DNA of 63,559 bases, the filler included. It is 3 parts of 3 records of this genome, joined end to end, with 100 filler letters (N's around TTAATTAATTAA, not from the genome) between each part and the next. Parts side by side here need not be neighbours in the genome. Positions count along the whole stretch, not along the records: positions 13,523 to 41,091 come from SRR20825019_2162; 2 more parts are not named here. One strand, written 5' to 3'. This document shows positions 1,940 through 27,400 of this stretch, piece after piece (position 1 is the stretch's first letter; each line of letters starts with the position of its first letter). A program made the translations under genes and the position numbers. Under the pieces are notes generated by a model. It was given only the letters and a program-made list of their open reading frames with translations, ran no database searches and was not told the DNA's origin.

Positions 1940-1945
1940 TTTGAT

Positions 1946-1965: not shown

Positions 1966-2282
1966 CACACTCAGTGTGGGGTTTTGGATCTGTGTTGGTT
2001 TCCCATACCCCATACTGCGAGGGTGGCTTTTGCGGAAAATGACATAAACGCGGGTTTTGATGAGGTGGGGTCCTTTGAATAGTGGCGTGATGTCATGAGG
2101 AAGTCACAGTTGCCTTTGGACAATGAAGCGTGATTACCAAAGTTGATCGAGGTGATTTTGCGAGCCTGTAAATCGCTATAGCGATTTGTCTATAGCGGCT
2201 TCCAGCTTTCCTGAGTTCCGTATTGAAAATGATGTTTAGCGATAGCTCGGGTGATCTGTTCGAGCCATGAGAATGAGAACGA

Positions 2283-3761: not shown

Positions 3762-3843
3762 GGGCGTGAGAATGGAAATGGGAGAGGGAACGGCCAGAAA
3801 ATTGAGATTGAGGGCGGGGTCGTGAGAGCGTGGGGGCTTTGGG

Positions 3844-3906
3844 CGGGCGCGGTCGAGCCGCGCCCCTACGCACTGACACCGTAGGGGCGCGCCTCGTGCG
3901 CGCCCG
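3844..3906. repeat. GTAG-type REP doublet (REPIN-like)
   Basis: CGGGCGCGGTCGAGCCGCGCCCCTAC (3844-3869) and the inverted copy GTAGGGGCGCGCCTCGTGCGCGCCCG (3881-3906). Each is a GC hairpin with a GTAG foot, 11 nt apart, in an intergenic region. Confidence 0.75.
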
Positions 3907-4101
3907 GATGGGCTGATACGTCAACTAATGGATGACTAATTTGATTTAGCTCGTGGAGAAGGGGGAGTCGATTGAGGGGGAGATGAGTCTCCAGACGGCA
4001 AGAACTGCCATTAGATTGAAATTGATCTTTACGCTGCCAGACCCAGCTCTGATTTTCTTCGTTTTCCCGTTTTCCTCGGGAGACCCCAATTTACCACTTA
4101 C

Positions 4102-7100: not shown

Positions 7101-7977
7101 GGCTCCGGATGAGGCCGAAGGTTCTGCAAATCCGGATGAAGCTTCCAGCGACCAGCAAGTTGAGGCAAAGGAAGCGGAACCTGCTCCGACGAAGCGCCGG
7201 AAAAAGAAGAAGGAGCCCCGGGGCGATCCTTCGGAAGCGGATCTTGCCGCCCTCGACGACACGAATTGGACCGAGGTGAAAGCCGAAGTGGATGCTCTCC
7301 GCAAACGTCTCAGCGGCATGGGTGCCGTCAACTTGGTCGCGATCGAAGAATATGCCGAACTGAAGGAGCGTCACGACTTCCTGAAGACGCAATGCGACGA
7401 TCTCACCAACGCGCGCACGGAATTGCTCACGGCGATCGATGAGATCAATACGACTTCCCAGAAGCAGTTCGAGGTAACCTTCGAACAGATTAAGAAAAAC
7501 TTCGAATACACTTTTCAAACGCTCTTTGGCGGTGGTCGGGCGACGTTGGAATTGATCGAAGCCGAGGACATTCTCGAAAGCGGCATCGAAATTGTCGCGC
7601 AGCCGCCCGGCACGAAATTGAAGAGCATCACCTTGCTCTCCGGTGGGCAGAAGACACTCACCGCAGTCGGGCTGCTCTTCGCGCTCTACATGGTGAAACC
7701 TTCGCCATTCTGTCTGCTCGATGAGTTGGATGCGCCGCTGGACGAATCGAACATCGGTCGTTTCACCAATTTGCTGAAGCAATTCGTGAATGAATCACAG
7801 TTCATCATCATCACTCACAATAAGCGCACGGTGGCTGCGGCCTCGGCGATTTACGGGGTGACGATGGAAGAGCGTGGCGTTTCCAAGACCGTTTCGATGC
7901 GCTTCAATCACGAAGATGGTGATGCGGAGCTGCAGACGCAGAATATAGCCGAAGCCGTCAATCAAACACAGGGCTGA
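4102..7977 (+). CDS. smc: Chromosome segregation protein SMC (1291 aa)
   Basis: MYLKALKLHGFKSFAD, Walker A GPNGCGKSN, long coiled coils and hinge, signature LSGGQ, Walker B FCLLDELDAPLD and IIITH. Confidence 0.97.
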   Translation: MYLKALKLHGFKSFADPTTLQFEPGVTAVVGPNGCGKSNIADGIRWVLGEQSAKALRGGKMQDVIFEGADTRKASQICEVSLLLTDCEEQLGSEFHEIEIMRRVHRDGGSEYFFNGQACRLKDIHKLFMDTGVGRTSYSIMAQGQIDQILSSKPEERRAVFEEAAGITKYKSQRREALGKLKLTEANLARVSDVISEVSRQIGSLRRQASKALRYKRLNHRLRHLALAWSGCQHSQLTETLDGLEASVGTLRQEAEARRADLESKQGSLDDMKAKRSHHNQRVQDAQQGVYDLRSQKEAAENQANLAQIKRNGLEERLESSRSSLGELEMQLREVTAEADTGAQDKQLQLGLLGSSDATYQQRNRDLAIVEGELSKVEQELQQTKFQILQLDSAVAKLRTDCSGYEVDQKTSVHRHENLAAELEQVRQQHVAAQQLAAELAVRAEEAQAEKARAHQEATEAQQSIATLTSEFREAQRKQQEIDRGLAQRTAQLRLLQQLQEKWEGFGEGAKAILQGKLDEALAGQSVTPITQGLVVNPNYSKAVEALLGSAAEAISVSDLPTAKRILAQLESGEVGSAVLHIGGVGASPVPASELPAFLRPATQALNGFDGEHPAVSILNSCYLADDLEAFLEYWKANPDFSFLAVATRKGDLVDRRGLVYGGYHSSKKSANSIVQREIDLRETAEALAIAQKDHDAQRQVIEGINTRLTTAEETLEQKRAEVLSLTQNVAAVQTDHRNADRSVEEVGQRSQRMENELTSLEQLRNEAHERWEKAQVGLQEAEASAKTHRDRIHHLETRVTEIRTDRDVKQESLSQSRLELAEHRQKVEVLDRGLNEMARRRQQVDQLLVQRRQEIEVWTEQVSQLEGEAASERERAVQMEESLAVAQQQVEVARKELVELERTITEVENIQNSLRGQSESSSGELRKHEIKLAETRQRAEFLVEEVQREFQTSIGSIDWKMMLWRSGDEPEGLQPLDLDEDESSDSNESEGTEPESASPAPDEAEGSANPDEASSDQQVEAKEAEPAPTKRRKKKKEPRGDPSEADLAALDDTNWTEVKAEVDALRKRLSGMGAVNLVAIEEYAELKERHDFLKTQCDDLTNARTELLTAIDEINTTSQKQFEVTFEQIKKNFEYTFQTLFGGGRATLELIEAEDILESGIEIVAQPPGTKLKSITLLSGGQKTLTAVGLLFALYMVKPSPFCLLDELDAPLDESNIGRFTNLLKQFVNESQFIIITHNKRTVAAASAIYGVTMEERGVSKTVSMRFNHEDGDAELQTQNIAEAVNQTQG

Positions 7978-7984
7978 TTCCGAG

Positions 7985-9907
7985 ATGGCATTGCGCAATA
8001 CCAAGCTGAAATTTATCTGGGGTTCCTCGGGTAAAGTTATTGCGCGTTGGAAGCTCGGGCTGTGGGGTTTTTACGAGCGTAAGCAGGGATATCCGGATTC
8101 GGGGTTGGCGATCAGTGTGCGTGGTCTCCTGCTATGGTTTGGGGTGTTGACGCCCGCTTTGGCGTATGTTTGCGCGGCGGCTGCCGTTTTCTTTTGGCTG
8201 GACCGAAATGAATATAATCAGGTGACACTCTCTGATACGCTGCTGTTGCCGATTCGCTGGGAGGAAGTGCAGGTCAAACGAGGGCAGGCCTACCTCGATG
8301 AAGGCATGGCTGACTTGAAGGCAAAGCGATGGTCGCAGGGATTGATGAAGTTGCGGATCGGACTGGCTCGTTATCCGCAGGCTTTAAAACCACGACTGAC
8401 CTTGGCGCAGTTCTATTTTTACAGCCAACGTCATGATATGGCGTTGAAGGTTTTGGAGGAAGGGATGGATGCGACGGACACGTATCCCGGTCGAGACTAT
8501 CTGAACAGTTACATGATGCTCGCGCTGAGAGGCGAAGATCACGAATCGATGATTGCGGTGTGTGATCGCTATCTCACGGCCGAGGACAGTCTACCTGAAG
8601 GGGAGGGCTCATGGCTGTTGCAGCAAAAGTTGATCGCGCTGTTGCAAGCGAAACGGGCGAACGAGGCCCTGGCACTCTTGGACGGCGCTCCGGAGAATCC
8701 CATGTTCAACGAGCAGCGGGTGTTGATCATGCTAGAGATGGGGGAAACTGAACGGGCGATTGCCTATCTGAAAGAATGGTCGGAGAAATCAGGAGAGACC
8801 GAGCAGACGATTCGCCTGCAGGTGCGGGCCTATCGTGATGCCAGGCAGCTTGAAGCGATGAATGAGCGCTTGTCTGTATTGCGAAACATGCGCCCGGCGG
8901 ATCCACGCTCACTGGCCTACGCGGTCGTGCAACAATACCTCGCCGATGACGAAAAAACTGCGAATGAATCGCTGGAGGAATACTTTTTCCGCTTCAGTGG
9001 GTTCGAAACCAATATGACAATGATTGCGGCTCCCTTGGCTGAAATTGGAGCAGTGAAATTGCTGGAGAAATGTCTGACCCGCTCGAAGGAACAGGGATAT
9101 CAGATGTATCCGCTGCTGATGTATCTGGCCCAGGCGCAGCTCAAGGCGAGTGACTGGGCGGGGGCTTTGGAAACAACGCAACGCCTGTCCAAGATGAAAA
9201 ATCCGGACAAGAGTGATACCACCTCTGAGGCGAATGTGCGGATGATGACTTATCTGGCGCAAATCGCGATCAATCCGGCGGAGGGCCTTCAAGTGCAGCT
9301 TTTGCAATTTATTGAGCAACGTCCTTATCCGTTTAAATCGTTTCGGAGTTTGGCCGAGACGTTATTCCGCGCACAGCGCTACGATGCGGTCCTGGAAGTG
9401 ATTGCGCGGGCGAATCAGAAATACCCGGGGAATCACGGATTGGATTCTATAAAGGATGAAGCGGCCGGGGAGATCGCGGCAATCGCGGCGCAGCAACCGG
9501 AACTGGTGGTGCAAAAGGAGCGTCCGGTTTTTGTCGAAGCGGCTTTCTTTGCACAATTGGATGCATTGATGGCTGCGAAGGAATGGGCCGAGGCAGCCGA
9601 GTGGGTGCGTAAAATGCAGCAGGCGCGACCCAGCTGGATGAAGACCCGGGAATCTGAAATTTTGATGAAGCAAATCGCCATTGCTCACGAAGCACGCGAC
9701 GTGCTCGAAATGACCTTGGCGGCCCGGATGGTTCTCGACGGGAGTTTGGCCAGATCACAGCTCGTCGTGGATTATGCGGTCGAGCTTGATGGGCGCGGTG
9801 AGAAGGAGGATGCGATTCGACTGATGAAGGAAGTTTCGCGGAGTTCACCCCACCACGCGTTGTCCCGCCGCTATCTGAATGAGTGGACGGAAACGGAGGA
9901 AAAGTGA
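7985..9907 (+). CDS. Membrane-anchored alpha-helical/TPR-like hypothetical protein (640 aa)
   Basis: Starts 7 nt after smc. It has an N-terminal hydrophobic segment followed by TPR-like helical repeats (e.g. RLTLAQFYFYSQRHDMALKVLEEG). Confidence 0.7.
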   Translation: MALRNTKLKFIWGSSGKVIARWKLGLWGFYERKQGYPDSGLAISVRGLLLWFGVLTPALAYVCAAAAVFFWLDRNEYNQVTLSDTLLLPIRWEEVQVKRGQAYLDEGMADLKAKRWSQGLMKLRIGLARYPQALKPRLTLAQFYFYSQRHDMALKVLEEGMDATDTYPGRDYLNSYMMLALRGEDHESMIAVCDRYLTAEDSLPEGEGSWLLQQKLIALLQAKRANEALALLDGAPENPMFNEQRVLIMLEMGETERAIAYLKEWSEKSGETEQTIRLQVRAYRDARQLEAMNERLSVLRNMRPADPRSLAYAVVQQYLADDEKTANESLEEYFFRFSGFETNMTMIAAPLAEIGAVKLLEKCLTRSKEQGYQMYPLLMYLAQAQLKASDWAGALETTQRLSKMKNPDKSDTTSEANVRMMTYLAQIAINPAEGLQVQLLQFIEQRPYPFKSFRSLAETLFRAQRYDAVLEVIARANQKYPGNHGLDSIKDEAAGEIAAIAAQQPELVVQKERPVFVEAAFFAQLDALMAAKEWAEAAEWVRKMQQARPSWMKTRESEILMKQIAIAHEARDVLEMTLAARMVLDGSLARSQLVVDYAVELDGRGEKEDAIRLMKEVSRSSPHHALSRRYLNEWTETEEK

Positions 9908-9999
9908 TTAGCGGGTGGAGCGTCCTGGCCACCTCAATGCAGCAATGATGGGCGCGGTTTGAAGGTGGGGAGCGGAATCCTCGCTCTACACTGCAACGA

Positions 10000-12192
10000 T
10001 TAGAGGATCAAATCCGGTGGCACGTTGGCGAGGGCTTCCTCGACGGTGGTCAGCCCTTGCTTGACCTTGAGAATCGAATCCTGGTGGAGCGTTTTCATGC
10101 CGTTTTTCATGGCGATTCGCTTGAGTGCGGCGACCTCGACTCTTTTGTTAATACCATCGGTCAGCTCCTCGCTGTTGATCATCAATTCGTGAATGCCCAC
10201 GCGGCCTTTATAGCCGGTTCCATTGCACATCGGACAACCCTGAGGGTTGGCCTTGAAAATTTCGCCGGACCATTCAATCGCCTTCTCCATGATGTCCTTT
10301 TCACGTCCTTCGGGCGTGTAGGGTATCTTGCAATTTTTACAGACGCGACGCATGAGGCGCTGGGCACACACGCAGACGAGAGAGGCGGAAATGTTGAACG
10401 GTTCGACCCCCATTTCACCAATACGGCTGACGGTCGATGGGGCATCGTTGGTGTGAAGGGTCGAAACGAGTAAATGACCGGTGAGGGCGGCTTCGACGGC
10501 GATCTGTGCAGTTTCTTCATCACGAATTTCACCGACGAGAATGATGTCGGGGTCCATCCGCAGGTAACAGCGCAAGGCGCGGGCAAAGGTGAGCCCGATG
10601 GCGCGGCTCATCTGCATTTGGTTAATGCCGGTGAGTGTGTATTCGATCGGATCCTCGGCCGTCTGGATATTTACGTCGGGGGAGTTGATTTCACCCAGGG
10701 CCGAATAAAGTGTCATGGACTTGCCGGATCCGGTAGGGCCACAGTGCAAAATCATGCCGTAGGGCAACTGGATGCACTCGCGATAGCGTTTCAGATTTTC
10801 ATCGGAAAATCCCAGAGCGGGGAGGGGGAGCGTGGATTTGGATTTGTCCAAAATACGCATGACGACCTTTTCGCCATCCTTCATCGGACCGGTGGCGACA
10901 CGTAAATCGATATCGATGTTCTTCTTGGTGTATTTCTTGAAGACGATGCGGCCATCCTGAGGCAGGCGGCGTTCGGCAATATCGAGATTGCACATGATCT
11001 TCAAACGGGTGACGAGGGCATTGCTCACCTGCTTGGGCAGACGGAGTTTTACTTGGCAGAGGCCATCAATCCGGTAACGCACCACCAGTTCTTTTTCCTG
11101 TGGTTCGATGTGAATATCTGACGCACCGGAAACGTAGGCATCCTCGATGATGCGATTGGTAAGCTGGATGATCGGCGCAGAATCTTCGCTTTCCAAATCC
11201 TCTGCAGAGACGTCGCCACCACCACTGCCGCTGTCGTCATAAGCGGTGTTGATAATGTCGGTGACGGAGTCTATATCGACATCATCGGGAGTTGTCCCAG
11301 CGCTTTCGGTTGCCTTGAAATATTTTTTGATCAGGGTATCGAAGAGCGTGGCCGAGATGACCTGCACTTCCTCGATATGCATATCGGTGGCTTGGGAAAA
11401 AGCCTCGCGCTTGGCATAGTCGAGCGGGTTCATCATCAATACCGCGACGGAATTGGGACTCAGCTGATTGTAAGGGAAAATGCCTTCCCGGCGAATGATG
11501 GCATCGCCGGTGATCTCGATGAGTTTCTCGTCGATTTCGAGCGTATCCGGATCGGTGACGAGAGGAAGGTCGGTGAGTTTTGCGACAAAGCGGGCGGTGT
11601 CGTCGGCTCCGAGTTCGAATTTTGGATCCACCATCCTTTGGATGAGGGTGGAGGAGTATTCAGCTACTTCTTGCAGGAGGACGAGGTCCTTGTCAGTGAA
11701 ATCTCCATCCGTTCCGGCGGCAGGTTCCTTGTTGAGCAGCTGGATGGCTCCGATGACCTTATCGCTCTTGAGCGGCACAGTGAGCATCGAAGTGACATCA
11801 AAACCGGTGTCTTTGGCCATCGACATGAGACTGCCTGCTTCGGGGCCATTATGATTAAAGAAGAGTGGTTGGCCGGTTTCGATGACCTTGCCGACATTTC
11901 CGGTGCCGAGAGGGAGTTTGAGCGCGAGGAGTTTTTCCTCGGTTTCTTCGAATTGCTTTTCCTTGGCGGGATCAGACTCCCAGAGAGTGGGGGAGTAGTA
12001 GATGTGCTTGAAGACGATGTCGTTTCCTTCGATTAGGTAAAACGTCATCGATTGCGCCTGAAGGGCTTCCACGACCTTCGAAGCGGTGAGCTCGATGACT
12101 GAATCCAGGTCCTCGCGACTCGGTGCGGGCTTGGAGATCACCTTGATGAGCAGGGAGCGTCGGAGGGCGTTGGCGATATTTGGAGCTGCCAT
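10000..12192 (-). CDS. PilB/GspE-family secretion ATPase with N-terminal GAF domain (730 aa)
   Basis: [21 protein letters not shown], Walker [31 protein letters not shown], His boxes and CxxC...CxxC zinc motif. The N-terminus has GAF hallmarks ([16 protein letters not shown]...[14 protein letters not shown]). Confidence 0.93.
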
Positions 12193-12279
12193 GGGTAATA
12201 CACCTGAGATAAACAGGTCATTCAGTGATTGTCAGCCTCTCTCGTGAGTCGCAATGAGAAAGACGCACGATTTATTCCG

Positions 12280-12720
12280 ATGTTTACTTGGTTACAGATG
12301 ATATGGGGAAAATTTCGGCCCACAACGACCGGCGATTTTGGGGAATTGAAAGCAGCGGATTTCCTGATAAAGGAGGCGGGCTTTCGGATCGTGGCCCGGA
12401 ATTGGCGCAATCCTCGGGATCGTCGCGATGAATTGGATCTGGTGGCGTTCGATGGTGAAGTGTTGGTCTTTGTGGAAGTGAAAACCCGGGCGAAGGAGGC
12501 CAAAGTGCCGGGTTATTACGCGGTGGATCAGCGGAAAAAACGGGTGGCGCAGCGTGCGGCACGAGCCTACATCGGGCGATTGCGGGAAAAGCCGCGCACC
12601 GTTCGTTTTGATATTGTCGAAGTGGAATTGGCGGCGCGGGGAACGAAGGGAGAACCGATCGTGCGTCATTTCGAAAATGTGCCGCTGTTTCCCAAGGATT
12701 TTCGCCCGGACCGATGGTGA
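12280..12720 (+). CDS. yraN: YraN (UPF0102) family PD-(D/E)xK putative nuclease
   Basis: GDFGELKAADFL..GFRIVARNWR..ELDLVA..LVFVEVKTR..RFDIVEV. The ATG at 12280 is preferred over the upstream TTG. Confidence 0.88.
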   Translation: MFTWLQMIWGKFRPTTTGDFGELKAADFLIKEAGFRIVARNWRNPRDRRDELDLVAFDGEVLVFVEVKTRAKEAKVPGYYAVDQRKKRVAQRAARAYIGRLREKPRTVRFDIVEVELAARGTKGEPIVRHFENVPLFPKDFRPDRW

Positions 12721-12798
12721 ACTGCGGTGAACAATTTCTCTCTGTGCGGGTAATAGCCTTGCTTGCCTGCGAAGGCGTTACAGAAGATTGTCCGATCT

Positions 12799-13422
12799 AT
12801 GGACGATTCTCAGCGTCATCCTTTCCTGCACGGACTCAGTAAACATCGTGGGGCACCTCCGACTGTCGTTGTCATTTTTGGCGCTTCCGGGGATCTGACC
12901 GCACGCAAACTGATCCCGGCGGTCTACAATCTTGGCGTGGATAACCTCCTCCCGACGGATTTTCATCTCGTGGGATATGGTCGTAAACCGATTCCCGACG
13001 ACGAATTTCGCGGTTTGGCTGCCGAGGCGATCAAGGAGTTCTCGCGTCGCGAACTGGATGACGAGGTTTGGGGACGTATCTCCGGCAACACCACCTACGT
13101 GTCGGGAGGCTACGATGACGAATCGGCGTTCGTGCGGTTGGCCGAGCACATCAATGCGATCGAGAAACAGATCGGTCGCGATGTGCAGGTGCTGTTCTAC
13201 ATCTCCACGCCACCTTCCGTGTTTGCACCGATTCTGACCAACCTTGGTGCATCCGGACTGGCTGCGAAACATCTGGGGCATCCCCACCACGCGAAGGTGA
13301 TTATCGAGAAGCCGTTCGGGCGTGATCTCGACTCGGCCCGCGAACTTAATGGCACGATCAGTTCGGTCTTTCAGGAGCATCAGGTTTATCGAATCGACCA
13401 TTATCTCGGCAAGGAGACGGTG
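12799..13422 (+). CDS. zwf: Glucose-6-phosphate dehydrogenase, 5' part (cut by contig end)
   Basis: VIFGASGDLTARKLIPA, IIEKPFGRD and RIDHYLGKE motifs. Confidence 0.95.
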
Positions 13423-13522
13423 NNNNNNNNNNNNNNNNNNNNNNNNNNNNNNNNNNNNNNNNNNNNTTAATTAATTAANNNNNNNNNNNNNNNNNNNNNN
13501 NNNNNNNNNNNNNNNNNNNNNN
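13423..13522. other. Artificial contig junction (N44-TTAATTAATTAA-N44)
   Basis: N runs flank a six-frame stop linker, and the sequence switches from bacterial to eukaryotic. Confidence 0.99.
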
Positions 13523-14780
13523 CCCCCCCCCCCCCCCCCCCCCCCTCCCACTAAAACCTGACCCAGCGGCCGGGGTGACGCTGACGAGCTCGAACGTTAC
13601 CGCCCGCGTGGTGAGGAACCGGTCCCAGCACCCGGAGACCGGCCGCCGCGGCCCGGCGTGCGCCGGCGGCCCCAACGCCCGGGCGGGCGGGGTCACTGAC
13701 TCACCTCACGAGGCCCGCCGGGCGCCTGCCGGGCCGGCCCGCCGCGCGGCCGCCGGGCAGTGTGGCGGCACGGGGGTCCCCGCCCCGCGTCCGGCGCGGC
13801 TCCGGCCTCATCCAGTCATGGCCGGAGATCTCAGCCGGGGTTGTTGAATGAGATTCATTTTAAGACCACAAAATTTGAGACCGAATCAGCTGCCAACAAC
13901 AACAATCATCTTGAATCCGATTGATTCCACGTTCACCATAGGAATCCGGTCTGGGTCAGGTTCATTGCACATTGGTCTGGGTCCCGCCTGTGCGGCCAAC
14001 ACTACTGAAGGAACACACTCCTGAAGGAACACACTGTTGGCCTCCGGGTTTAGCAGCATCCAATACGACGGGTTGTGCCTCCATGCGACTTGTGGAGATG
14101 GTCTTCATGGAGAATTTTAATTTGTTTGGACGGATAATTGGGAAGTCGGTGTCATTGAAAAGGCGGCTTAGTTGAACTTTTTTTAGTGGTGATGGGGCCC
14201 AACCACGACGCACTGTGCCTCTACTAGGCACGGCGCGGCGGCTGTCGGGCCTCTTGCCGGAGGGAATGGGCCCGTAGTGGCCCGCCCAAAGGACTTGTTC
14301 CCACGCGGGGCCGACAGTGGTGCTCGTCGGACTTCTTGACGTCGTCCGACCCGGACGCCTCGGGCCCCCGTGACTCGTGAGGCCCGGCATGGCTGGGGTG
14401 TTGCCTCCTCCCCAAGCGCTCACCGGAGCAGCCTGCGGACGGTCGGGGGTTGTCGGGCGACGGTTTGGGTGAGGCAGCTCACTGAGCACGTCGCTGAACG
14501 AGCTCTGTCACCACCGCCCCCCCCGGCTGACGTGCTGCCGTCTCCGGCCAGGGAGTGACATTCTTGGCTGCGTCCCGTGCCACCGAACCGCCATCCGGGC
14601 ATTTCTTGTCATGCCCAAAGCCAGTAAGCACTTTCACTTCAGGTTGGAATTGATGGGTCCGAAATCCACCTCCTCGGAGCTCCGTTGAAGTTCTTGGGAA
14701 CTGAGCGACACTCGTGGCGGATGATCTCTGGATAACAAGACTGTGCTACTATCGGTCGTCATGTTGTGTGACTTACTCCG

Positions 14781-14830
14781 CTAACACCCGGAACAACTCA
14801 AGTTACTCTAACACCCGGAACAACTCAAGT
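14781..14830 (+). repeat. Short tandem duplication (23-bp identical unit, 27-bp period) upstream of chitin synthase
   Basis: CTAACACCCGGAACAACTCAAGT occurs at 14781-14803 and 14808-14830. Confidence 0.9.
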
Positions 14831-14932: not shown

Positions 14933-17900
14933 ATGGTCGGGTGGAGCTGGAAGCTGCGGCGCATAGTCGCGAGGCTGCAGCATGACTACAAGCCTATTCC
15001 AGTCAAGTCCACTGTGGAAGATGACCGAGAGACACAGATACAGAACAACTGTTGCGTCGCAGTGACGGCGTTTTTCGCCAAGGGTGTCGTGGCAGTTACT
15101 CTCATGGTATCTATAGTGGCAGCTGTTCTGAGCATCACTTATTCTGGCGCGGAGCTTGCACGTGGATTGCGCGCTGGATGGTCTAAGACTGATGGGGTTC
15201 ATAACGACGACGTGTCAAACAATTCGAGGACAGAGTCATTTGTATATGTCGTTCTTACGATGGTGGCGCCAGAACTGTACATGTTCTTTCTCGCCGGGGT
15301 ATTGTCTGTGGTTCGGGAGTGTATGAAGAAGCCGGTGAAGCAGCCCAAGAGGATGTGGACCCGCGACGATGGAGAAATGCCCAACCCCTTGGACATTGTT
15401 CCTGGGGCGGGGCTAGGATCCTCAAGCACAATGGGTTCATCTGATGGGGGCTCGGGCCAGTTCCCGCCTCCTTTGAACCGTAGGGCCACCAGTGATTCCG
15501 ACATGCACCTTAGTGACTCAGACGCGGAATCAAGTATGTCCAATTCTTGCCTACAGCAGCTGTCCCTTACTGACCATTTTTTCCAGAGAGTTCCGCTTCT
15601 TCTGATGGGAAGGGTAGTGACGACGAGGCGGGAGGGGGCGAGACCAAATCCAAGTTGCGTTGGGTTTTGGCAATGGGCGTGTTCACTGTGGAAGCGTTTC
15701 TCGAGTCGCTAGGGATGTGTATTATTTTCATGTGGGTCTTGCCGCATCTGGCAAATATCGAAGTAATTGCGCTGGTTCACGGTGGCGCGTTGTCTCCTCT
15801 GGTGGTGCAGATTTGTAGTCTGGCATTTGCCTTCGCTGTGGAGCGACAGCGCCTGCGCGCGCACAAGGATATGACTAGCCTGGGTTACACGCCGGGGCCT
15901 GCGTCATCTATCGAACAGCACCGTAACCCCGGCCAGTATCAGCTGTCTGCATCCCAAAAGTCAAAGGCTCTTCGCAAGTCTATGAATTCGAAGTTGGTGA
16001 TCATGGCTATACTGTTCGTGGTGGCAATATGTAACATTTGCGGACTTTTGGCAATGATGGTGCAAACCGTTTTCGAGAAGAGGTGGTATTTCAGTCTCCA
16101 GCTGTGGGAGGTCTTGTTTGGAGTGCTTTGCGTCTCGATTCCTCACTGGCACAACTTTGTGAGCAGTGAGAGCTCAGTCATCGGAGAGTATGATCTGCTG
16201 ACCCCGTTGCTCAACAAGGACGAAGCTGGAATCACAGGATGCTTTGCCAGGGCGCAGCACAACATTCAGGTCCTTGGTGCAACCATGGCGGAGTTTCGAT
16301 ATTCGCTTGCCCACTTCAAGGCGCTGCTGAAGGTGATATTGATCCCTCTCATTGCCTTTGGCTTGGCTGCGTGGAAGTCGATCGTGTCGTGGAGTGACAT
16401 TACCCACCTCCACATGTCTGCAACGAGCCGGGAGGCGGTTTTATTCTATGTATTCGTCGGGAGCACCACGCTGCTCAATTGGCTTGGACAGCTGGCTATA
16501 GGACTCCGCTTGCAGAAGGCATGTTTCGCGTTTCCCCTCTACGCAAGCGGTCCAATCATGGTCTTGGTGGACGTGTGTCATCCCGCCGGCGGTGCCAACT
16601 TCCATTCCGCGGCGTATTGGACGGCGATGGCGTTGGCGTTCATTCCCCTTTGGCTCAGCCAAGTTATAGCAGCTCGTCATGCGTGGAGAAGCAATTACAT
16701 GGTCCTCCCAATGGGACAAACTATTTTCAATCGTCCATGTGGTGCGAATATGTTTGCTAGCTCAACATTGCTCTTCAACAGGAACTTCCGCGAAGATCCG
16801 AAGAAGTCAACCTCTCTTCACAAAGATGTGTTCACTTTTGTCGCGTTGACGATGTGGCATGAAGAGAAGGAGGAGATGAAGGCAGTGTTAAAGTCTCTTT
16901 CGAAGTTGAAGCCTGTGCGTGCACTGGGCCAACCTCGTGTTGATTATGAGATTCATGTGGTTTTTGATGATGCATTCAAGAATGGCTCAACCCGTGCTCC
17001 TAATGGGAACGCCTATGTTCATCAATTTATCAAGCAGCTCAATAAGGCATTTGGTGGTGGAATTATCCACAAGCGTACCTTCTGCAAGTCTTATGGTCGC
17101 ATGATGCGAATGTCGCTGCCTAATGGGATCGAAATGTTTGTCCATCTCAAGGACGTGGAGATGACGAAGCAGAAGAAACGATGGAGCCAAATCCTTTACT
17201 TGTGTTTCATGTACCACCGCCTTCGTGAACTGGTGCGCATTGACCCTACCCTGGCTGATAAGGCGGTCTATGTCCTCACTCTTGACGGAGATGTCTCATT
17301 CGAGCCCCATAGCGTGGAGCAAATGGTGGATTTCATTCAACGTGACGATCGGGTCAAGTCCGTTTGTGGCCGCATCCACCCCCTCGGCAGTGGTCCCATT
17401 GCATGGTACCAGATATTCGAGTACGCGGTTGGTCACTGGATGCAAAAGGTTGCCGAGCATGTCATCGGAAGCGTGCTTTGCAGTCCGGGTTGCTACTCTA
17501 TTTTCGACTTCGATACCTTATGGGAGTGCGCCCCCTACTACGCCGTGGCATGCACAAAGCCCAGCCACATTTTGATGTACGATCAAGGGGAGGATCGCTA
17601 CCTGAGTACCCTGATTGTGAGTCGCGGGTTTGCTCTCCAATACTGTGCCACCGCAGATGCGAAGACATATTGTCCAGACGACTTCGCTGGCTTCTTCAAC
17701 CAGCGCAGGAGATGGGTGACCTCGACTTTGATCAACATATATGAGATGCTCAAACGGAGTGGGTCAATTGTTCGCCACAACCCGTCTGTTCCCTTGATAT
17801 TCATTCCTTATGTCATCATGGTGCTCTTGTCAACGATCATTTCGCCAGCATCCATTACACTTTTGATTATTGGCGGTCTCAAGGATGTTGTTGGTCTGCA

Positions 17901-20760
17901 CATTGTCCTCACATACATCATCGGGTGTGCGCCTGTGGTTGTCTTTGTCCTAGCTATCATGTTCTGCAAGGGCTCAACCCAGATTAACGTTGCTTTCTTT
18001 CTCAATATAATCTATGGGACTTTAATGGCCGTGGTGCTTGTATCCGTTGCTGTGGGGATGGCAGCTGACATTCTCTCGCCGACTTCAATCTTCTCCATGT
18101 GCTTGTTTGCATTCTACTTTTTGGCGGCCTTCCTTCATCCTTACGAGTGCTGGATGATCATTTTCTTGCCTCTTTATATTATCTGTATTCCTTCAGCCTA
18201 CTTGGTCCTGACAATGTTCTCTCTCGGAAATATGCACGTGACTTCATGGGGTACTCGTGATGGATCAGGAGGTCACGAAGCTGCCAAGGATGTGTCAGGG
18301 GTAATCGGAAAGGTGACATCCTGGCTAAAACGTATTGTCCATGGCCAAGCAAAACCCCCGCCGACCGAGGATCTCGAATCATCTGGATCTTCCGGTGGCT
18401 CTACTGTTGGTGATAATGACGCGAATCGTGAATCAGCGTCTAGGGCTTACGTCCCGCCCGAAGTGTCATACGCACCGCCCACTTATACTATTCCAAGCCA
18501 TAATCAATTTCCAGCGGAGGCAGCATCACCTGGTCCTTCGAGGAGCGCCTCAGTAAGCTCCGGCAATCCCGGGGTGGACCCTCTTTACACAGACTTCTTG
18601 CTTCAGCTTGCAACCCCAAGCTCGCATATCATGGAGGATTACCGCGAAACTGCTATGTGGCGATCTCATTCGAAGTGGCTGAAACCCCCAGTCAAGACTG
18701 AGAAGAATCAGGAAAAACAGAAAGATTTGATGGATGGCCTGAAGAAGATGCGGCGCGATACCAATGCTTGGCTTTTGATCGTGAATATGTTCTGGGTTGC
18801 TGTGGTCGGTGCCCTGTACTACCAGAAATCGTTGACTGTGTGGAATAGCAATGTTGCTGGTCTTGGGTTCCTTATGGTATTTGGAATCACCATGCTTGTC
18901 CAGGTGGTTGCCATGTTGGTACATCGGTTGTGGTCATTGCTGCATTTAATTGGCAGAATCAACATGCGTAATCGGCCTGCCCGGGGATTCATTGAAGGGT
19001 GGTGTTCCGATGACGATGACGATATTATTAGTCAGTACACTGAGAAAGTCGCCCTGAAGAAAGCGCAGGCGCGAATGCAGCGGGAATCGCGGAAGAGACC
19101 AGTCGACTACGCGGCCATTAAGGCCCAATTGCTGTCGAAATCCGACCCCGAGTTCGCACACGAGTTCCTTGCGACTCTTCCAGAAAACGTACCCGGTCAT
19201 TCTCGAACTGACTCGCAGTCACTTTCTGTGGCCTCCTGTGGTGGTTCGTTTGGGGAACGTTCGATTAATGATATGATGGGAACAAGCATACCAAAATCTA
19301 GCTCTCTACCTCGGACCGGCTCTTTTAACCGTACCAACTCGCAGGGTGATCTTATTTCCTTTAATGACCCGCCAGAGACGTCTGGAGGCAGGAATGCAAA
19401 TTCTCCTGGTATAACCCGTTCCGTTTCGTGGTCACGCACACCGGAGAGATCTCGGCCGCCGCTAGCCCACATGAGCTCACCACATTCCCTTGGCAGCCTG
19501 AGGAATGATGCTCATTCTGTCATTCGGGAGGGTGTGGAGGCCTCAGAGGATCACCAGGGTGCCCAAGAAGAGGCCAGGCCTACTTCCACTATGCACGACC
19601 CCACGGCCACTGCCGGAATCGAAGGCCGGGTGAATTCTCCTCTGCCGAGTGTAGACGAGCTTCCCCAAGTCCCGTTGTTGCGACCTGGCATGATCACTGA
19701 AGAGAAAGGGGCCCCCATGAACAGGCCGGTGTCGACTCCTATTGGTAAGAATGTTGCGTCCATGCTACAGTTGCAGATTCGTGCCCAAGAAGAGGAAATT
19801 GAGCGTCAAAAGCGTCAGGTGGAGGAGCAGCGCATGGAGGCTGCCAGACGCGAGCAGGAAGTCACCCTGCAGGAGTTGAGACTGGAGCAGGAGCGACTGG
19901 CGGCTGAGAGGAGGGAGCTTCGGGAGAAAGAACAACGTATTCAGAGGGAGAAACTGAAACTGAAGGAGGAAGAGGCAAAACTTCCAAAGTATCGCGTAGT
20001 TCGCCCGGATGAGACCCCCGGCCGTCTTCCGTCCCCGCCCCCTGCCCCTACGACTTCTGCTCTTCCGAGCCCTGCTGTGGCGGACAACTTTGTCAAAGAG
20101 AAAGAGGTTGTCGCTGAGGAAGAGAACATTGACGCATTGATCGCAAGGAGGGAAATTCTGAGGGAGCGGGCAAGGCTTCAGGCGGAGGAAGAGAAGAAGA
20201 AGGAACAGAAGGAGTGGGAAGAAGCTCGACGCCGCTCGACCGAGATCCGGCAGCTAGAAGAGGCTAAAAAGGCACGTGAGGATGCTGCAGCTAAGAAGAA
20301 GGAGGCCGAGGAGAAGGCGGCTGTCGCGGAGGCTGAGCGTGTCGCACTGCTGAGGCAATTGAAGATTGAGGAGGAGAAGAGGAAGGAATTGGAGAGAAAG
20401 CAGCAAGAAGAGTCTCAGAGGATGCAGGAAGTTCTCAACAAGGAGCGTCTCCAGCAACACTTGCACATGCTAGCGATGCAGGAGGAGCTTGAAAAGCGGA
20501 AGAAAGCGGAGAAGGAACAGGCTGATTTGGCGGCTAAGAAGAATGAGGAGGAACAGAAAGCCAAGGCCGAGGAGGCCAAGCGCGCGGAAGAGGCCATAAG
20601 GTTGCGGGCAATGAAGGAAAAAGAGCGGTACGAATCGTTGGCTCGCGGTCAGTCTGTGCGGGCTGCAATGACTACCCAGTCGGGAAAAAAGCCTGCCGCA
20701 AAGAGCACATCTCTTAGCTCCATGTTCCAAATGAATCGTAAGAAGAAAAGCAAGCAGTAA
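14933..20760 (+). CDS. CHS: Chitin synthase (GT2), metazoan-type, about 1924 aa; exons 14933-15533 and 15587-20760
   Basis: A 53-nt GTATGT..CTGAC..CAG intron (15534-15586) joins the two ORFs in frame. Motifs TMWHE, KKRWSQ, LDGD, QIFEYAVGHWMQK, CSPGC, YDQGEDRYL, QRRRW and SWGTR. Multi-TM N-terminal domain, 5+2 C-terminal TMs and a long E/K/R-rich tail. Confidence 0.95.
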
Positions 20761-23787: not shown

Positions 23788-24459
23788 ATGGCGGCTTCAG
23801 CTTCTTCGGCAACACTCCGGTTGATGAGTGATCTGAAATCGATAAAGCAGCAACCTCCAGAGGTCTGTTTGAACTTGGGCCTATTGAGAGTTGAGTCTTA
23901 CGTTTCACAGGGCGTCAGTGCTAGCCCTGTTAGCGACGATAATTTGTTCATTTGGGAAGCAACGATCTTTGGTCCGGACGAGTCGCCGTGGGAAGGCATG
24001 TTCAAGCTACTCGTGCTTTTGACTTTGCTAATGGATCTTTGTAGGTGGTATTTTCTCCTTGCGGTTGACTTTTAGTGAGCAGTACCCTGACAAGCCACCA
24101 AGGGTTCGGTTTTTGTCCGAAATTTTCCATCCCAATGGTAAGAGCGTGACCTACCTGACTATTCACCTTTTCTAATTTGGTCGATTTTAGTGTACAGTGA
24201 TGGTACTCTTTGCATGGACATCATCCAGGAGCTTTGGTCTCCTGTGTTTTCGGTCTCTTCCATTTTGACGTCTATTCAGGTATGTGGCGGTTTACTTTGA
24301 CGATAATGCGATCTAAATATGGTGTTTCTACAGTCTTTACTCACTGATCCTAACCCTCAAAGTCCTGCAAATCCTGAGGCTGCACAGCTTTTGACTAGCG
24401 ATAAGGCATTGTATAAGAAGCGAGTGCGAAGATGCGCAGAGAAGTCTGTATCTGGTTAA
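23788..24459 (+). CDS. Ubiquitin-conjugating enzyme E2, Rad6/UBC2-like, 5 exons
   Basis: Spliced product RLMSDLK...[63 protein letters not shown]. Introns 23863-23910, 23996-24044 (GC-AG), 24138-24190 and 24280-24333. Confidence 0.95.
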
Positions 24460-24492: not shown

Positions 24493-27400
24493 TTAGCGTC
24501 GTGTGGTACCTGGAGCTGGCCGGGCTGGTGCCTTCCGGCCTGGGCCTGGATGGCGTGGGGGCTTCTGCTTCGACTCCGATCCGGTGCTTCCTCTCTTCTT
24601 TCCAAATATGATACCGGAGATTGCCCGAGTCACCGGCTGAGTCAGCCGCTTCCTGGTCGACAGCCTTCTCTGAAGTTCAGGCGCTTGCTTCTGGTTAGTT
24701 GGCTGCGTGCTTTGGGCTCGGGTGGCGTGTGTGGAGTCGCGCGAGCTTGACGGCATGGAGGAATCCGGAGGTGGATGAGGCCGATCCTCACGTGGCGGAG
24801 GCGGGGGTTGCGGCTCTGGTTCTTGCATCGAAGCAAGGCCAAATCCTGATGCGCTGTCACCTCCGTCACGAGCGGAACCCCTGCTGCTTCTATCATCTTG
24901 CATTCCGCGTCTGGATTCATCGCTGGCGCGTCCTCCCGGATTCACGTCATAGTGCAAACCGAAACCGGTAGTGGGCATGGCTGAGCTCGCCTTAGATTCC
25001 GCCGTGGACACCTGATCAGTGTGGTCCTCAACGATGTCTGTACCATCTCCTTCCACTGGTTCCATATCAGGCTCAGCCACTGCACCGCTATCGTCACCCT
25101 GCACACCAGCCCCATTGTCAGTGGGTTGGTCTACACCTGCCGGCAGCTCTCCAATGAATGACTTGAGGTGAGTCTGCATATTCTTCACGTCCGCATCTCT
25201 GAGAATGTCAACCGTAAGATCCTTCACAGCAACCTCGGCATATCTCTCCACGCTTTTGCGCCTGTGCATCTGACGAGCAAGGTGACCACGTGCTGCTCTT
25301 TGAAGTACAGGAATCGCTTCCTTCTGCTTAATATAGCGCTCATGCACCGGACTACGTCTGTGTATGTATCCCCTCGCAACCTTTTGGATCGCCTTAGTCG
25401 CTTCTTTCTTCTCCATAATATCTTTCCTCAAAAGGGCCCCACGTACCAGTGATTGTACTGCCGTGGCGGCCTTTTCGCGCTCCTCGCGTTCTGCCCGCTT
25501 GACTTGGAGAACGTCAGCCTTGCGAGTGGCATAACCACGATAGTGTGCCTGAACCCTCTGGGCTGCCTGGTCTTGGACCTCCTGAGAAGCATCATCGCGT
25601 ACCAGTCTACCGCGGCACTGGTCTATCCCAAACGCTTGCTGAATTCCCATTGTATGTTGTCCTCGCGGAGTCAACGGCCCAGAAAGGTCGTGGGACTCAG
25701 ATTCGGCGTCGCTGAATGCTTCTTCGAATGTAAGCGCGGATGATTCTTGGGATACGGTGCGACCATAATCAGGAGTGTCCTGGTGAACATGCTGGAACTC
25801 GAAGTTTGCTGCACACTCTCCCATAGTCACATCATCATCATGAGACGTCAGCAGTGCGAGCTCTCCATAGATGTCGTCGAGGGTGACCGGGCGGCGGGGC
25901 GCAGGCGATGGACTTGACTTGGACCTATTGCGGGAATAAGATCCCTTTCGCGACTTGCGCCCTAGTGGGCTCTTCCCGGACCATGCTTTCTTTGTAGTAG
26001 ACTCAGAGCTTTTGCCTTGTACCGCGGGAATGCTCGAAGCCTCCATATTATTGTACTGAGAGGGTGCTGGAATATCATCCACACTCGTCGTCCATTGGGA
26101 ACGTGCATGCTTCGTGTTTCTATGCGAAGGGGGGCTCAAAGCATGCACAGTCAAGTGGTCGTTTTCGTCCGCAAACACAACTCGCACGACACGATTTTTT
26201 GGCGGAGGCGAGTGTACCACGTCATCATCATCTTCGAACGAGGCCCTGATGGCAGCACTCTCCGTGCCACGAATATCTTCGGGATCCGTCCGGTTCCTTT
26301 TCAATGGTGATCGCGTAGAGATATCTGGAGAGCCGTTTCTGCTCCCTTGAGCGTCTCGTCCGCGCTTTGAACGGGAAGACATCTTCACCTGCTCGACAAG
26401 GCGAGTGAGGATCTTTGCCCATCTTCCAGGATCCCGACGTAGTACCCTCAACACCCTCTTATCCACACTAAATCGGCTGTGCTGGGCTCTAGAGTGGATT
26501 CTCTGCGTAATTGCATTCCATTCATCATCTGTTTTCCGCAGCAATAGGTAGAATCTATACTCAATATTTGCAGTAGATAAACCGCCAAATCCATTTCCAT
26601 GACGAGAGCTCGGGGAAAAGTCGATTCCTTCTTCACCAGCCTTCCTCTTCTCGCCATTCTTTGGTTCCGCCTCAAAAGCCAGCGCGTCAATTAGGAACTT
26701 CAACGCAGCCTTGCTCACCAGCGGCCCATCCTCCTCATCGTCAGCTTGATCTTCCTCGCCATCACTCTCGGTGCTCTCCGGAGTGGACTTGGATCCCTTG
26801 GCATAGCCCATGTCAGGGCTCTGGGTCCCCACAGAGTTCTTCTCAGATTTATCAAAGTCATCGGAATGACGCTTTGGATCATTTGCCACCTCACCCTGCT
26901 CATGATCCAGGGTACATCTTAGGGCTGTGCCCATGCTAATCACTAAACTGTGCACGGCCTTTTCCAGGCGGTCTAACCTGGCACTCTCCTCCTTCATTTT
27001 CTCGGCGGCTGCGTCACCCAATGCTTCCGATAAGGCAGTAGGTTCCGGAGCAGGGGTTGCCTTCTGTTGATTAGAAGTTGTCTGTCCCTTAAAACGGAAA
27101 ACCCCCGGCCTGGAGAGCTTCTGCTGGTGGTACATCCTATGAATGGATTTGAGAGTGTTAAAGTTAGTTTCAGTGGTGGCAGATGTAGGCCCAAGATTCT
27201 CTTGGACTGCATGATTGGCACCGGCCGAAGTGGATCGCTTCTCGGCGACGGGAGCAACAGGTTTCGGGGCGGAAACATCTCTGGGAATTACTGTCTCGCC
27301 CATCTGCTGGCCAGTGATGACATCGTCATGCCGAATGATTGGTGTACGGCCATGATTCCAATCCTTGGCTTCTTGGTCTGTTACGTGGGCACCTTCCGTT

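What the first reader, a model, noticed from the sequence alone, without database searches (positions are those of the whole stretch)
14933..18970. Animal-type chitin synthase in an apparently non-animal microbial eukaryote
The motifs TMWHE, KKRWSQ, QxFEYAVGHWxQK, VLCSPGC and YDQGEDRxL, plus the multi-TM N-terminal domain and SWGTR/coiled-coil/2-TM C-terminus, match the metazoan/choanoflagellate CHS clade rather than fungal or oomycete types. The contig has introns of about 50 nt and a protist-style CAP domain, and the similar contig 3 carries H+-PPase and CBL, which animals and fungi lack. The gene is nearly intronless amid intron-dense neighbours. Inference: a deeper origin or horizontal transfer of animal-type CHS, and an unrecognised chitin-producing protist.
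Basis: partly seen in the sequence, partly recalled or inferred. Interest (0 to 1): 0.7.

Follow-up and report, generated by a model that had tools for sequence, protein, structure and literature searches.

The report
Deep-branching animal-type chitin synthase gene
This is an intact chitin synthase gene of the animal-type family, carried by an unidentified small-intron eukaryote in a mixed assembly; it adds a divergent branch to a family already known to reach beyond animals.

Summary
The gene is real. All the quoted motifs are present. It runs from 14933 to 20760, not to 18970: exon 1, a 53-nt intron, then a 5.2-kb exon, giving 1924 aa. It is a GT2 chitin synthase (Pfam PF03142, 94 bits), and its model best matches solved chitin synthases.

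It is 35-40% identical to animal CHS and about 24% to a fungal class V-like CHS. No relative above 43% identity appears among 1.8 billion cluster representatives. In a careful ML tree it lies between type I (with choanoflagellates) and type II, inside neither crown. A clade with choanoflagellates is rejected (p-AU 0.025). Sister positions to either type are not rejected. It lacks the SAM and PF23000 domains and has a roughly 600-aa tail with two long predicted helices.

The host is unidentified. The window is three joined contigs. The H+-PPase contig has GC3 of about 0.8, against 0.52-0.59 for the CHS contig, so it is probably another organism. Nothing supports HGT. A deeper origin is already published (PMC5122149). 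Verdict: a new member of a known kind, of modest interest.

The parts
14933..15533 (+). CHS exon 1 (200 codons plus 1 nt), with two hydrophobic segments and a Ser-rich stretch
   Evidence: ORF and ATG; splice model; hydropathy
15534..15586 (+). 53-nt spliceosomal intron (GTATGT...TACTGAC...CAG)
   Evidence: Of the in-frame GT/GC-AG options listed, this is the one with a consensus donor and a length like the contig's other introns. No RNA evidence.
15587..20760 (+). CHS exon 2, including the stop at 20758-20760. The whole protein is 1924 aa.
   Evidence: Uninterrupted frame 15574-20760; joined CDS has no internal stop
15083..16674 (+). N-terminal membrane domain, about 8-9 hydrophobic segments (aa 51-563, spanning the intron)
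   Evidence: Kyte-Doolittle scan, approximate. Not recognised by PF23000.
16783..17775 (+). Cytoplasmic GT2 catalytic domain (about aa 600-930): TMWHE 622, KKRWSQ 730, LDGDV 766, QxFEY 809, EDR 869-871, QRRRW 906
   Evidence: Modelled with block pLDDT mostly above 90; best fold matches are solved chitin synthases.
17815..18210 (+). Cluster of 5-6 membrane helices after the catalytic domain (aa 944-1075), the presumed chitin-conducting channel
   Evidence: helices 364-506 of the model
18244..18258 (+). SWGTR motif (followed by D, not the E of the insect WGTRE)
   Evidence: W, G, T and R are at least 90% conserved in the 44-row alignment A2.
18766..18951 (+). Last two hydrophobic segments (aa 1261-1322)
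   Evidence: helices 644-704 of the model
18952..20757 (+).
   Evidence: Composition; 0 stops in frame against 24 and 33 out of frame; no Pfam family
19738..19980 (+). Predicted long alpha-helix 1 of the tail (81 residues)
   Evidence: AlphaFold2 single-sequence model, residues 89-169 of the piece, block pLDDT 87-95
20095..20670 (+). Predicted long alpha-helix 2 of the tail (192 residues)
   Evidence: AlphaFold2 single-sequence model, residues 208-399 of the piece, block pLDDT mostly 88-95

Best explanation
Window 14933-20760 (+) is an intact two-exon gene for a 1924-aa membrane-integrated, processive family-2 glycosyltransferase, a chitin synthase.

Shown: the sequence, the motifs, the family assignment, the predicted fold, and the tree position.

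Inferred from established knowledge of solved fungal and oomycete CHS and of insect CHS: the cytoplasmic GT-A domain binds UDP-GlcNAc (the DGD and QxFEY/EDR regions). The QRRRW motif holds the growing chain. Each added GlcNAc pushes the polymer out through a channel made by the helices that follow the catalytic domain.

The enzyme belongs to the 'Metazoa division' of CHS but to neither crown clade. With two unnamed environmental proteins (P0173, P0226) it attaches to the branch between type I (sponges, cnidarians, amphioxus, choanoflagellates) and type II (bilaterian kkv/chs-like). It is as divergent from each type as they are from each other.

It lacks the accessory domains of either type (the SAM domains of type I, the PF23000 N-terminal domain of type II). 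It carries its own roughly 600-aa tail: a disordered linker plus two very long predicted helices. I infer, without a test, that the tail oligomerises the synthase or ties it to the cortex or cytoskeleton.

The host is an unidentified eukaryote with a compact, intron-rich genome and introns of 48-54 nt. Most likely it is a protist outside animals and choanoflagellates that inherited the gene vertically. The gene shows no sign of recent transfer.
For: Family. PF03142 scores 94.1 bits. Six of 6 PDB sequence hits are chitin synthases. The 721-aa core model has pTM 0.81 and mean pLDDT 79.9. All listed fold matches down to rank 20 are chitin synthases (E 7e-19 to 7e-15, TMq 0.50-0.52), ahead of hyaluronan and cellulose synthases. 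The catalytic residues of DGD, QxFEY, EDR and QRRRW lie in invariant columns of the 7-row alignment A1 and mostly of the 44-row A2.

Animal-type. In one search, 1863 proteins scored E<=0.001 among 7673 candidates and the best 120 were listed.

Deep and orphan. In one search, 2825 representatives scored E<=0.001 and the best 150 were listed, with a top identity of 43%. Mean identity of the query is 35-38% to every group. For comparison it is 40% between type I and II and 48% between choanoflagellates and metazoan type I.

Tree. The careful IQ-TREE run (LG+C20 PMSF, 47 rows x 494 columns) gives two supported splits. The split {type II + Calanus-labelled clade + query + P0173 + P0226} against {type I + outgroup} has support 100/98. 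The split {Calanus-labelled clade + type II} excluding the query has 98/94. The AU test rejects query plus the choanoflagellate clade (delta lnL 42.9, p 0.025).

Accessory domains. SAM is found in 4 of 4 named type I or choanoflagellate proteins scanned, and PF23000 in P0196. Neither is found in the query's N-terminus or tail.

Native to the contig. GC3 is 0.59 against 0.52-0.55 in three neighbouring ORFs. The gene's 53-nt intron resembles the neighbours' introns of 48-54 nt.
Against: Host identity was not established. No rRNA, tRNA or conserved single-exon marker lies on the contig.

The tree cannot fix the position. With LG+F+G4 and fast searches, trees holding the query with type I (p-AU 0.35) or with crown type II (p-AU 0.37) are not rejected. 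FastTree instead placed the query with P0173 as sister of type I. The query's end branch is long (1.41), so long-branch effects are possible. The only outgroup (one fungal class V-like CHS, branch length 10) roots nothing reliably.

Short introns and a compact genome also occur in some small or parasitic animals (my recall), so a fast-evolving animal is not excluded.

Named basal protist CHS (Thecamonas, Entamoeba, ichthyosporeans) could not be fetched. I therefore could not test whether the query simply belongs with one of them.

The intron, the start codon and the long tail have no transcript support. Enzyme activity and the polymer made are untested.
Confidence: 0.6

Rival explanations
1. 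The contig comes from a small or parasitic animal with a compact genome and fast-evolving proteins. The gene is a very divergent ordinary animal CHS, pulled to the base of the tree by its long branch.
For: A tree holding the query with crown type II is not rejected (p-AU 0.37). The ML tree puts it on the type II side of the main split. The query's end branch is long (1.41). Introns of 48-54 nt and dense genes are also known from nematodes, tunicates and some parasites (my recall, not tested).
Against: Identity is no higher to type II (38%) than to the other groups (35-38%), whereas animals within type II average 56%. It is excluded from {Calanus-labelled clade + type II} at 98/94. PF23000 is not detected. 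The best identity is 43% among the 150 listed representatives of about 15 billion proteins, although animals are densely sampled. A 325-aa channel ORF on the same contig found no homologue at all.
Confidence: 0.15
2. One reading: a protist far from animals (outside Amorphea) acquired an animal-type CHS by horizontal gene transfer.
For: Only the patchy distribution of CHS types among protists. Goncalves et al. 2016 discuss this as either deep ancestry or several transfers (PMC5122149, passages read). The host is unknown, so a distant host cannot be excluded.
Against: The gene is not nested within any possible donor clade and is as far from animals as the animal types are from each other. Its GC3 matches neighbouring genes. 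It carries an intron of the host's own size class. The argument for a distant host rested on contig 3, whose GC3 of 0.79-0.82 points to another organism.
Confidence: 0.08
3. The enzyme makes something other than structural chitin, for example short chito-oligosaccharides or a hyaluronan-like polymer.
For: Hyaluronan synthases are the next best fold matches (E about 1e-12). Goncalves et al. note CHS homologues that may release soluble chitosaccharides (PMC5122149, passage read).
Against: Every sequence and fold search ranks chitin synthases first by wide margins. The CHS-type SWGTR motif and the post-catalytic helix cluster are present.
Confidence: 0.07

Closest known systems
Metazoan type I plus choanoflagellate chitin synthases (Zakrzewski et al. 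2014, PMC3942024; here Oscarella, Corticium, Sanderia, Exaiptasia, Branchiostoma, Gigantopelta, Hartaetosiga, Microstomoeca, Salpingoeca punica)
   Same: Same catalytic motifs and the same order of parts: N-terminal membrane domain, GT2 domain, helix cluster, SWGTR, two more hydrophobic segments. Alignments with these proteins reach furthest into the query's N-terminal domain, from about residue 240-300 of P0001. FastTree put the query next to this clade.
   Different: Only 35-36% identical. It is separated from them by a 100/98 split in the careful tree. A clade with choanoflagellates is rejected at p 0.025. It has no SAM domain, whereas 4 of 4 members scanned have one.
Metazoan type II chitin synthases (insect kkv/CHS1, nematode chs, mollusc and fish CHS)
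   Same: The best-scoring hits by sequence. The query lies on their side of the main split. Same motifs, including QRRRW and WGTR. Drosophila Kkv has a C-terminal coiled coil proposed to act in oligomerisation (PMC12431666, passages read).
   Different: 38% identical, against 56% within type II. It is outside the crown at 98/94. The PF23000 N-terminal domain is not detected. SWGTR is followed by D rather than E. Its tail is far longer and matches no Pfam family.
Basal protist members of the 'Metazoa division' of CHS: Thecamonas trahens and one Entamoeba histolytica CHS (Goncalves et al. 2016, PMC5122149)
   Same: By description they hold the same kind of position: animal-type CHS in non-animal protists, branching at the base of the division (passages read).
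   Different: Not compared here. I could not obtain their sequences with the searches I had, and I did not open the paper's supplementary tables.
CHS fused to cytoskeleton-related modules: fungal class V/VII and lophotrochozoan myosin-motor CHS (PMC3942024)
   Same: A CHS core joined to a large extra cytoplasmic module. This is only an analogy for what the helical tail might do.
   Different: The extra module here is C-terminal, has no myosin motor or any Pfam domain, and consists of a disordered linker and two long predicted helices. The fungal class V-like core is only about 24% identical.

Membership tests
Chitin synthase (processive GT2, Pfam Chitin_synth_2 PF03142) | Profile match above the curated cut-off | tested here: met
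   94.1 bits against a cut-off of 27, E 1.1e-26
Chitin synthase (processive GT2, Pfam Chitin_synth_2 PF03142) | Catalytic and product-binding motifs intact (DxD-type DGD, QxFEY, EDR, QRRRW) | tested here: met
   All present in one frame. Their key residues lie in invariant columns of A1 and A2.
Chitin synthase (processive GT2, Pfam Chitin_synth_2 PF03142) | (S/T)WGTR motif after the post-catalytic helices | tested here: met
   SWGTR at aa 1087-1091, window 18244-18258. It is followed by D, not E.
Chitin synthase (processive GT2, Pfam Chitin_synth_2 PF03142) | GT-A fold joined to a membrane channel like solved CHS | tested here: met
   Model pTM 0.81. The best Foldseek matches are Candida Chs2, yeast Chs1 and Phytophthora Chs1, with E 7e-19 to 7e-15 and TMq about 0.5. 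The model is a prediction.
Chitin synthase (processive GT2, Pfam Chitin_synth_2 PF03142) | Makes chitin from UDP-GlcNAc | not testable with these tools
   Needs expression and an assay
'Metazoa division' / animal-type CHS (Goncalves 2016; Zakrzewski 2014) | Closer to animal CHS than to fungal division 1 or 2 or oomycete CHS | tested here: met
   34-40% identity to animal CHS against about 24% to a fungal class V-like CHS. PDB fungal and oomycete CHS reach only E 6e-9 to 6e-5. Fungal classes I-III were represented only through the PDB search, not in the tree.
'Metazoa division' / animal-type CHS (Goncalves 2016; Zakrzewski 2014) | Membrane segments on both sides of the catalytic domain in the animal pattern | tested here: met
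   Hydropathy scan, crude; the exact number of helices is not fixed
Metazoan type I + choanoflagellate clade | Falls inside the clade in a tree | tested here: not met
   Separated by a 100/98 split. A clade with choanoflagellates is rejected at p 0.025. A sister position to the whole clade is not rejected (p-AU 0.35).
Metazoan type I + choanoflagellate clade | C-terminal SAM domain(s) (present in some members) | tested here: not met
   No SAM in the tail. SAM is present in Hartaetosiga, Microstomoeca, Oscarella and Branchiostoma.
Metazoan type II clade | Falls inside the crown clade | tested here: not met
   Outside {Calanus-labelled clade + type II} at 98/94. A sister position is not rejected (p-AU 0.37).
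Metazoan type II clade | PF23000 N-terminal putative transporter domain | tested here: not met
   Not detected at E<=1 in residues encoded by 15589-16833 or in the exon 1 ORF. In my own scan it was also not detected in the one insect protein scanned (P0008), so absence is weak evidence.
Known basal protist members (Thecamonas, Entamoeba) | Groups with them in a tree | not tested

The most novel reading that the evidence does not exclude
The contig belongs to a eukaryote lineage with no sequenced close relative. Its CHS, with the two environmental orphans P0173 and P0226, would then represent one or more branches of the animal-type family that split off before the type I / type II duplication. 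It carries a previously undescribed long helical tail. That would put the origin of the animal-type enzyme before Choanozoa on sequence evidence independent of Thecamonas and Entamoeba, and would point to unrecognised chitin-making protists in the environment.
Probability: 0.3. Interest if true: 0.55.

Novelty: new member of a known kind. Interest (0 to 1): 0.3.

Why it matters
Chitin synthesis outside fungi and arthropods is poorly mapped, and the history of the animal-type enzyme (two ancient types, with patchy protist relatives) is unresolved. A full-length, intact sequence that breaks the long branch between type I and type II could help root that tree. It could also show which accessory domains (SAM, PF23000, myosin, this helical tail) were added later.

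The practical value is limited until the host is known. That animal-type CHS exist in non-animal protists, with an origin older than animals, is already published (PMC5122149, PMC3942024). The report also shows that the contigs joined in this window cannot be read as one organism.

Tried and rejected
**No context available.**
- No whole genome is held for the window.
- Rfam and tRNA scans of the window found nothing, so there is no rRNA to place the host.
- Earlier-findings look-ups by place, sequence and words returned nothing.

**Sequencing runs.**
- Two coded DNA-type holders from one study were listed, with shares of 0.39 and 0.11.
- No RNA holder was listed, so the intron and tail could not be checked against transcripts. 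I did not lay reads.

**Searches that led nowhere.**
- The profile search with alignment A1 (query plus six basal sequences) scored only 7 proteins, because the word filter was saturated. It gave one fungal outgroup (P0287) and one bacterial GT2 (P0288). P0288 did not align by phmmer and was left out.
- My last protein search used the single-exon channel ORF 31383-32357 in the hope of a taxonomic signal. It found nothing at E<=0.001.
- The Atlas search with the LIM-like ORF gave scores of 0.83 or less and no useful taxa.
- The scan of JGI metagenome contigs with the catalytic region found 58 pattern matches, none a relative.
- A weak Codanin-1_C match (23 bits, below the cut-off of 27) might have hinted at the host. 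The literature search on its distribution was unhelpful, so I dropped it.

**Limits on searches and tree tests.**
- Spliced proteins such as the E2 could not be sent to search tools, so multi-exon genes gave no taxonomic evidence.
The AU table therefore rests on fast searches.

**Considered and rejected.**
- Recent HGT: rejected on composition, the intron and the tree position.
- Contig 3 as evidence about the host: rejected on GC3.
- Gene end at 18970: rejected because the frame stays open.

Full report
**What the window is.** The 63,559 bases are three contigs joined by runs of N around TTAATTAATTAA.
- Contig 1 (1-13422) looks bacterial. It carries a type II/IV secretion ATPase with a GAF domain, a DDE transposase, a sulfatase and an SMC protein.
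- Contig 2 (13523-41091, GC about 0.52) carries the finding.
- Contig 3 (41192-63559, GC about 0.60) carries H+-PPase, an EML-like double propeller, acyl-CoA oxidase, an RNase PH exosome subunit and ankyrin repeats.
- No whole genome is held. No rRNA or tRNA lies in the window.

**The observation.** One frame is open from 15574 to the stop at 20758-20760, 1728 codons.

An upstream ORF starting at ATG 14933 holds two further hydrophobic segments. I listed all in-frame GT/GC-AG options that join the two frames. The one with a consensus donor and a length typical of this contig is 15534-15586 (GTATGT...CAG, 53 nt). The resulting model has exon 1 at 14933-15533 and exon 2 at 15587-20760. It gives 1924 aa with no internal stop.

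The frame goes on for about 600 more codons. Over 18971-20757 it has 0 stops, against 24 and 33 in the other two frames.

**What it is.**
- Pfam Chitin_synth_2 matches at 94.1 bits against a cut-off of 27.
- All 6 PDB sequences hit at E<=0.001 are chitin synthases.
- An AlphaFold2 model of the 721-aa core, built on a 44-row alignment, has pTM 0.81 and mean pLDDT 79.9.
- Its listed Foldseek matches down to rank 20 are chitin synthases of Candida, yeast and Phytophthora, with E 7e-19 to 7e-15 and TMq 0.50-0.52. Hyaluronan synthases (E about 1e-12) and cellulose synthases follow.
- The key residues of DGD, QxFEY, EDR and QRRRW fall in invariant columns of alignment A1, as do those of SWGTR. In A2, W, G, T and R of SWGTR are at least 90% conserved.

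I conclude, as inference from the solved enzymes, that it is an active processive synthase. It would polymerise GlcNAc from UDP-GlcNAc on the cytoplasmic face and extrude the chain through the helices that follow the catalytic domain.

**Architecture.** These figures come from a crude hydropathy scan.
- About 8-9 hydrophobic segments lie at aa 51-563.
- The catalytic domain spans about aa 600-930.
- A cluster of 5-6 helices spans aa 944-1075.
- SWGTR is at aa 1087.
- Two more hydrophobic segments lie at aa 1261-1322.
- A tail follows. It is Ser/Pro/Thr/Gly-rich to about aa 1600 and then E/K/R/Q/A/L-rich.

A single-sequence model of the last 428 residues predicts two long helices of 81 and 192 residues at high confidence, separated by a disordered linker. 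No Pfam family matches the tail or the N-terminal domain.

**Which kind of CHS.**
- The word-indexed search gave 1863 hits at E<=0.001 among 7673 candidates, with the best 120 listed. All the named ones are animals, at 34-40% identity.
- The exhaustive search of 1.84 billion cluster representatives gave 2825 hits at E<=0.001, with the best 150 listed. None exceeds 43% identity. No close relative of this protein is on record.
- I cut all fetched proteins to the 510-aa region matching the query. I kept 255 of 268 that covered at least 80% of it and made a FastTree of 256 rows. All but 27 rows sat close to named animal type II proteins.
- The 27 others included the query's neighbours. Cluster look-ups gave an organism for 11 of the 20 I asked about. 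These were Branchiostoma (twice), Oscarella, Corticium, Sanderia, Exaiptasia, Gigantopelta, the choanoflagellates Hartaetosiga, Microstomoeca and Salpingoeca punica, and a sequence from a Calanus transcriptome. This is the type I plus choanoflagellate clade of Zakrzewski et al. 2014 (PMC3942024, passages read), plus a separate small clade.

**The careful tree and tests.** The careful IQ-TREE run used LG+C20 PMSF on 47 rows x 494 columns.
- The rows were the query, all 27 non-type-II rows, 18 named type II rows chosen by me for spread, and one fungal class V-like outgroup.
- About 209 further type II rows were left out.

Results:
- A 100/98 split separates {type II, the Calanus-labelled clade, the query, P0173, P0226} from {type I with choanoflagellates, plus the outgroup}.
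- A 98/94 split keeps the query and P0173 outside {Calanus-labelled clade + type II}.
- The query and P0173 form an unresolved fork, and P0226 branches one node further out.
- The outgroup branch is very long (10) and does not root the tree reliably.

Read without a root, the query and the two unnamed environmental proteins hang on the internal branch between the two animal types.

FastTree had instead joined the query and P0173 to the type I side.

The AU test under the mixture model rejects a clade of the query with the choanoflagellates (delta lnL 42.9, p 0.025). Under LG+F+G4 with fast searches, holding the query with all of type I (p 0.35) or with crown type II (p 0.37) is not rejected.

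Mean identities tell the same story:
- the query is 35-38% identical to every group;
- type I versus type II is 40%;
- choanoflagellates versus animal type I is 48%;
- within type II the mean is 56%;
- the fungal outgroup is 24% identical to the query.

Accessory domains agree. SAM domains are present in 4 of 4 named type I or choanoflagellate proteins scanned, and PF23000 in P0196. Neither is present in the query, P0173 or P0226.

**The host.** Contig 2 is a cellular eukaryote with dense genes and tiny introns. An E2 ubiquitin-conjugating gene (23788-24459) needs four introns of 48, 49, 53 and 54 nt, one of them starting GC. Its joined frame is open, with HPN at position 82 and a Cys at 92. 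Only one of its exons was scored by Pfam, and that score (25.4 bits) is below the cut-off of 27.

Other genes on the contig are:
- EF-hand proteins;
- a 1775-aa disordered protein with IQ motifs;
- a single-domain cation channel;
- a LIM-like zinc-finger protein;
- a borderline CAP domain.

None of these places the organism. The channel ORF found no homologue, and the metagenome scan found no close CHS relative.

GC3 is 0.79 and 0.82 in the two contig 3 genes measured. It is 0.52-0.59 in the four contig 2 genes. Contig 3 is therefore probably another organism of the same mixed assembly.

What remains for 'not an animal, not a choanoflagellate' is:
- the depth of the CHS branch;
- the rejected choanoflagellate clade;
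- the lack of any near relative despite dense animal sampling.

I put a non-animal, non-choanoflagellate protist at about 0.65-0.7. On parsimony I favour a lineage of Amorphea that inherited the gene vertically.

**Transfer or deeper origin.** Nothing points to transfer.
- The gene's GC3 (0.59) fits its neighbours.
- It has an intron of the host's size class.
- It is not nested in any donor group.
- Long uninterrupted exons are not peculiar to it on this contig.

The 'deeper origin' is already stated in print. Goncalves et al. 2016 infer an ancestral gene for the 'Metazoa division' in the opisthokont ancestor. They suggest a still earlier origin from the basal positions of an Entamoeba histolytica CHS and the Thecamonas trahens CHS (PMC5122149, passages read). 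I could not obtain those sequences. I did not open the supplementary tables of that paper or the alignments of PMC3942024.

**The tail.** Drosophila Kkv has a C-terminal coiled coil proposed to act in oligomerisation (PMC12431666, passages read). Fungal class V/VII and lophotrochozoan CHS carry myosin motors (PMC3942024). By analogy only, the two long helices here may oligomerise the synthase or anchor it to the cell cortex. This is untested.

**Verdict.** This is a real, intact, probably active chitin synthase of the animal-type family. It forms a divergent orphan branch with a distinctive helical tail, in an unidentified eukaryote with short introns. It is a new member of a known kind, with interest 0.3.

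Noticed in passing
window 1-13422, 13423-13522, 41092-41191: The window is three unrelated-looking contigs joined by N runs around TTAATTAATTAA. Contig 1 looks bacterial (T2SSE ATPase with GAF and MshEN domains, DDE transposase, sulfatase, SMC), with GC3 0.66-0.71.
   Followed up: partly
window 41192-63559 (contig 3): Eukaryote-like contig with an uninterrupted H+-PPase ORF (41767-44235, minus strand) and an EML-like double beta-propeller (54196-57960, plus strand). It also has acyl-CoA oxidase, RNase PH and ankyrin exons. GC3 is about 0.8, so it is probably a different organism from contig 2.
   Followed up: partly
window 13523-13548: Contig 2 begins with a run of about 25 C. This may be an assembly or sequencing artefact, or a contig-end repeat.
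   Followed up: no
window 14781-14803 and 14808-14830: Two direct copies of a 23-nt motif lie about 100 nt upstream of the CHS start codon, read by eye. Tandem Repeats Finder did not report it at its default score. It may be a promoter element.
   Followed up: no
window 23788-24459 (+): A 155-aa E2 ubiquitin-conjugating enzyme gene in five exons, with introns of 48, 49, 53 and 54 nt. The second intron starts with GC instead of GT. It looks RAD6/UBC2-like, but that name is from my recall.
   Followed up: partly
window 31383-32357 (+), continuing near 32357-32635: Single-domain, voltage-gated-type cation channel (Pfam Ion_trans 46 bits, PKD_channel 22.8 bits). It has an S-G-D-A-W pore-like motif, and the next exon has a heptad-like C-terminal stretch. 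No homologue was found by the word-indexed search at E<=0.001.
   Followed up: partly
window 24496-29820 (-): Uninterrupted 1775-codon ORF for a mostly disordered, Ser/Arg/Lys-rich protein. IQ motifs lie near the C-terminus, and four N-terminal repeats resemble A-E-K/R-A-V-x-M-x-R.
   Followed up: no
window 37935-39473 (-): 513-aa ORF with at least four repeats of a C-x2-C ... H/C-x2-C module. It gives a weak LIM match (22.8 bits, just below the cut-off of 22.9). Atlas scores were 0.83 or less.
   Followed up: partly
proteins P0196, P0221, P0206 (not in the window): A distinct, well-supported (100/100) CHS clade is sister to animal type II. It consists of 13 near-identical proteins, mostly on ENA contigs of 4-5 kb (two are from NCBI), plus one sequence labelled as from a Calanus glacialis transcriptome. 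Whether it is copepod or an associated organism is open.
   Followed up: no
proteins P0173 (Logan contig of 3.6 kb) and P0226 (JGI contig of 4.4 kb): Two unnamed environmental CHS are as isolated as the query (36-38% identical to it and to each other). They share its position between type I and type II, and both lack SAM and PF23000.
   Followed up: partly
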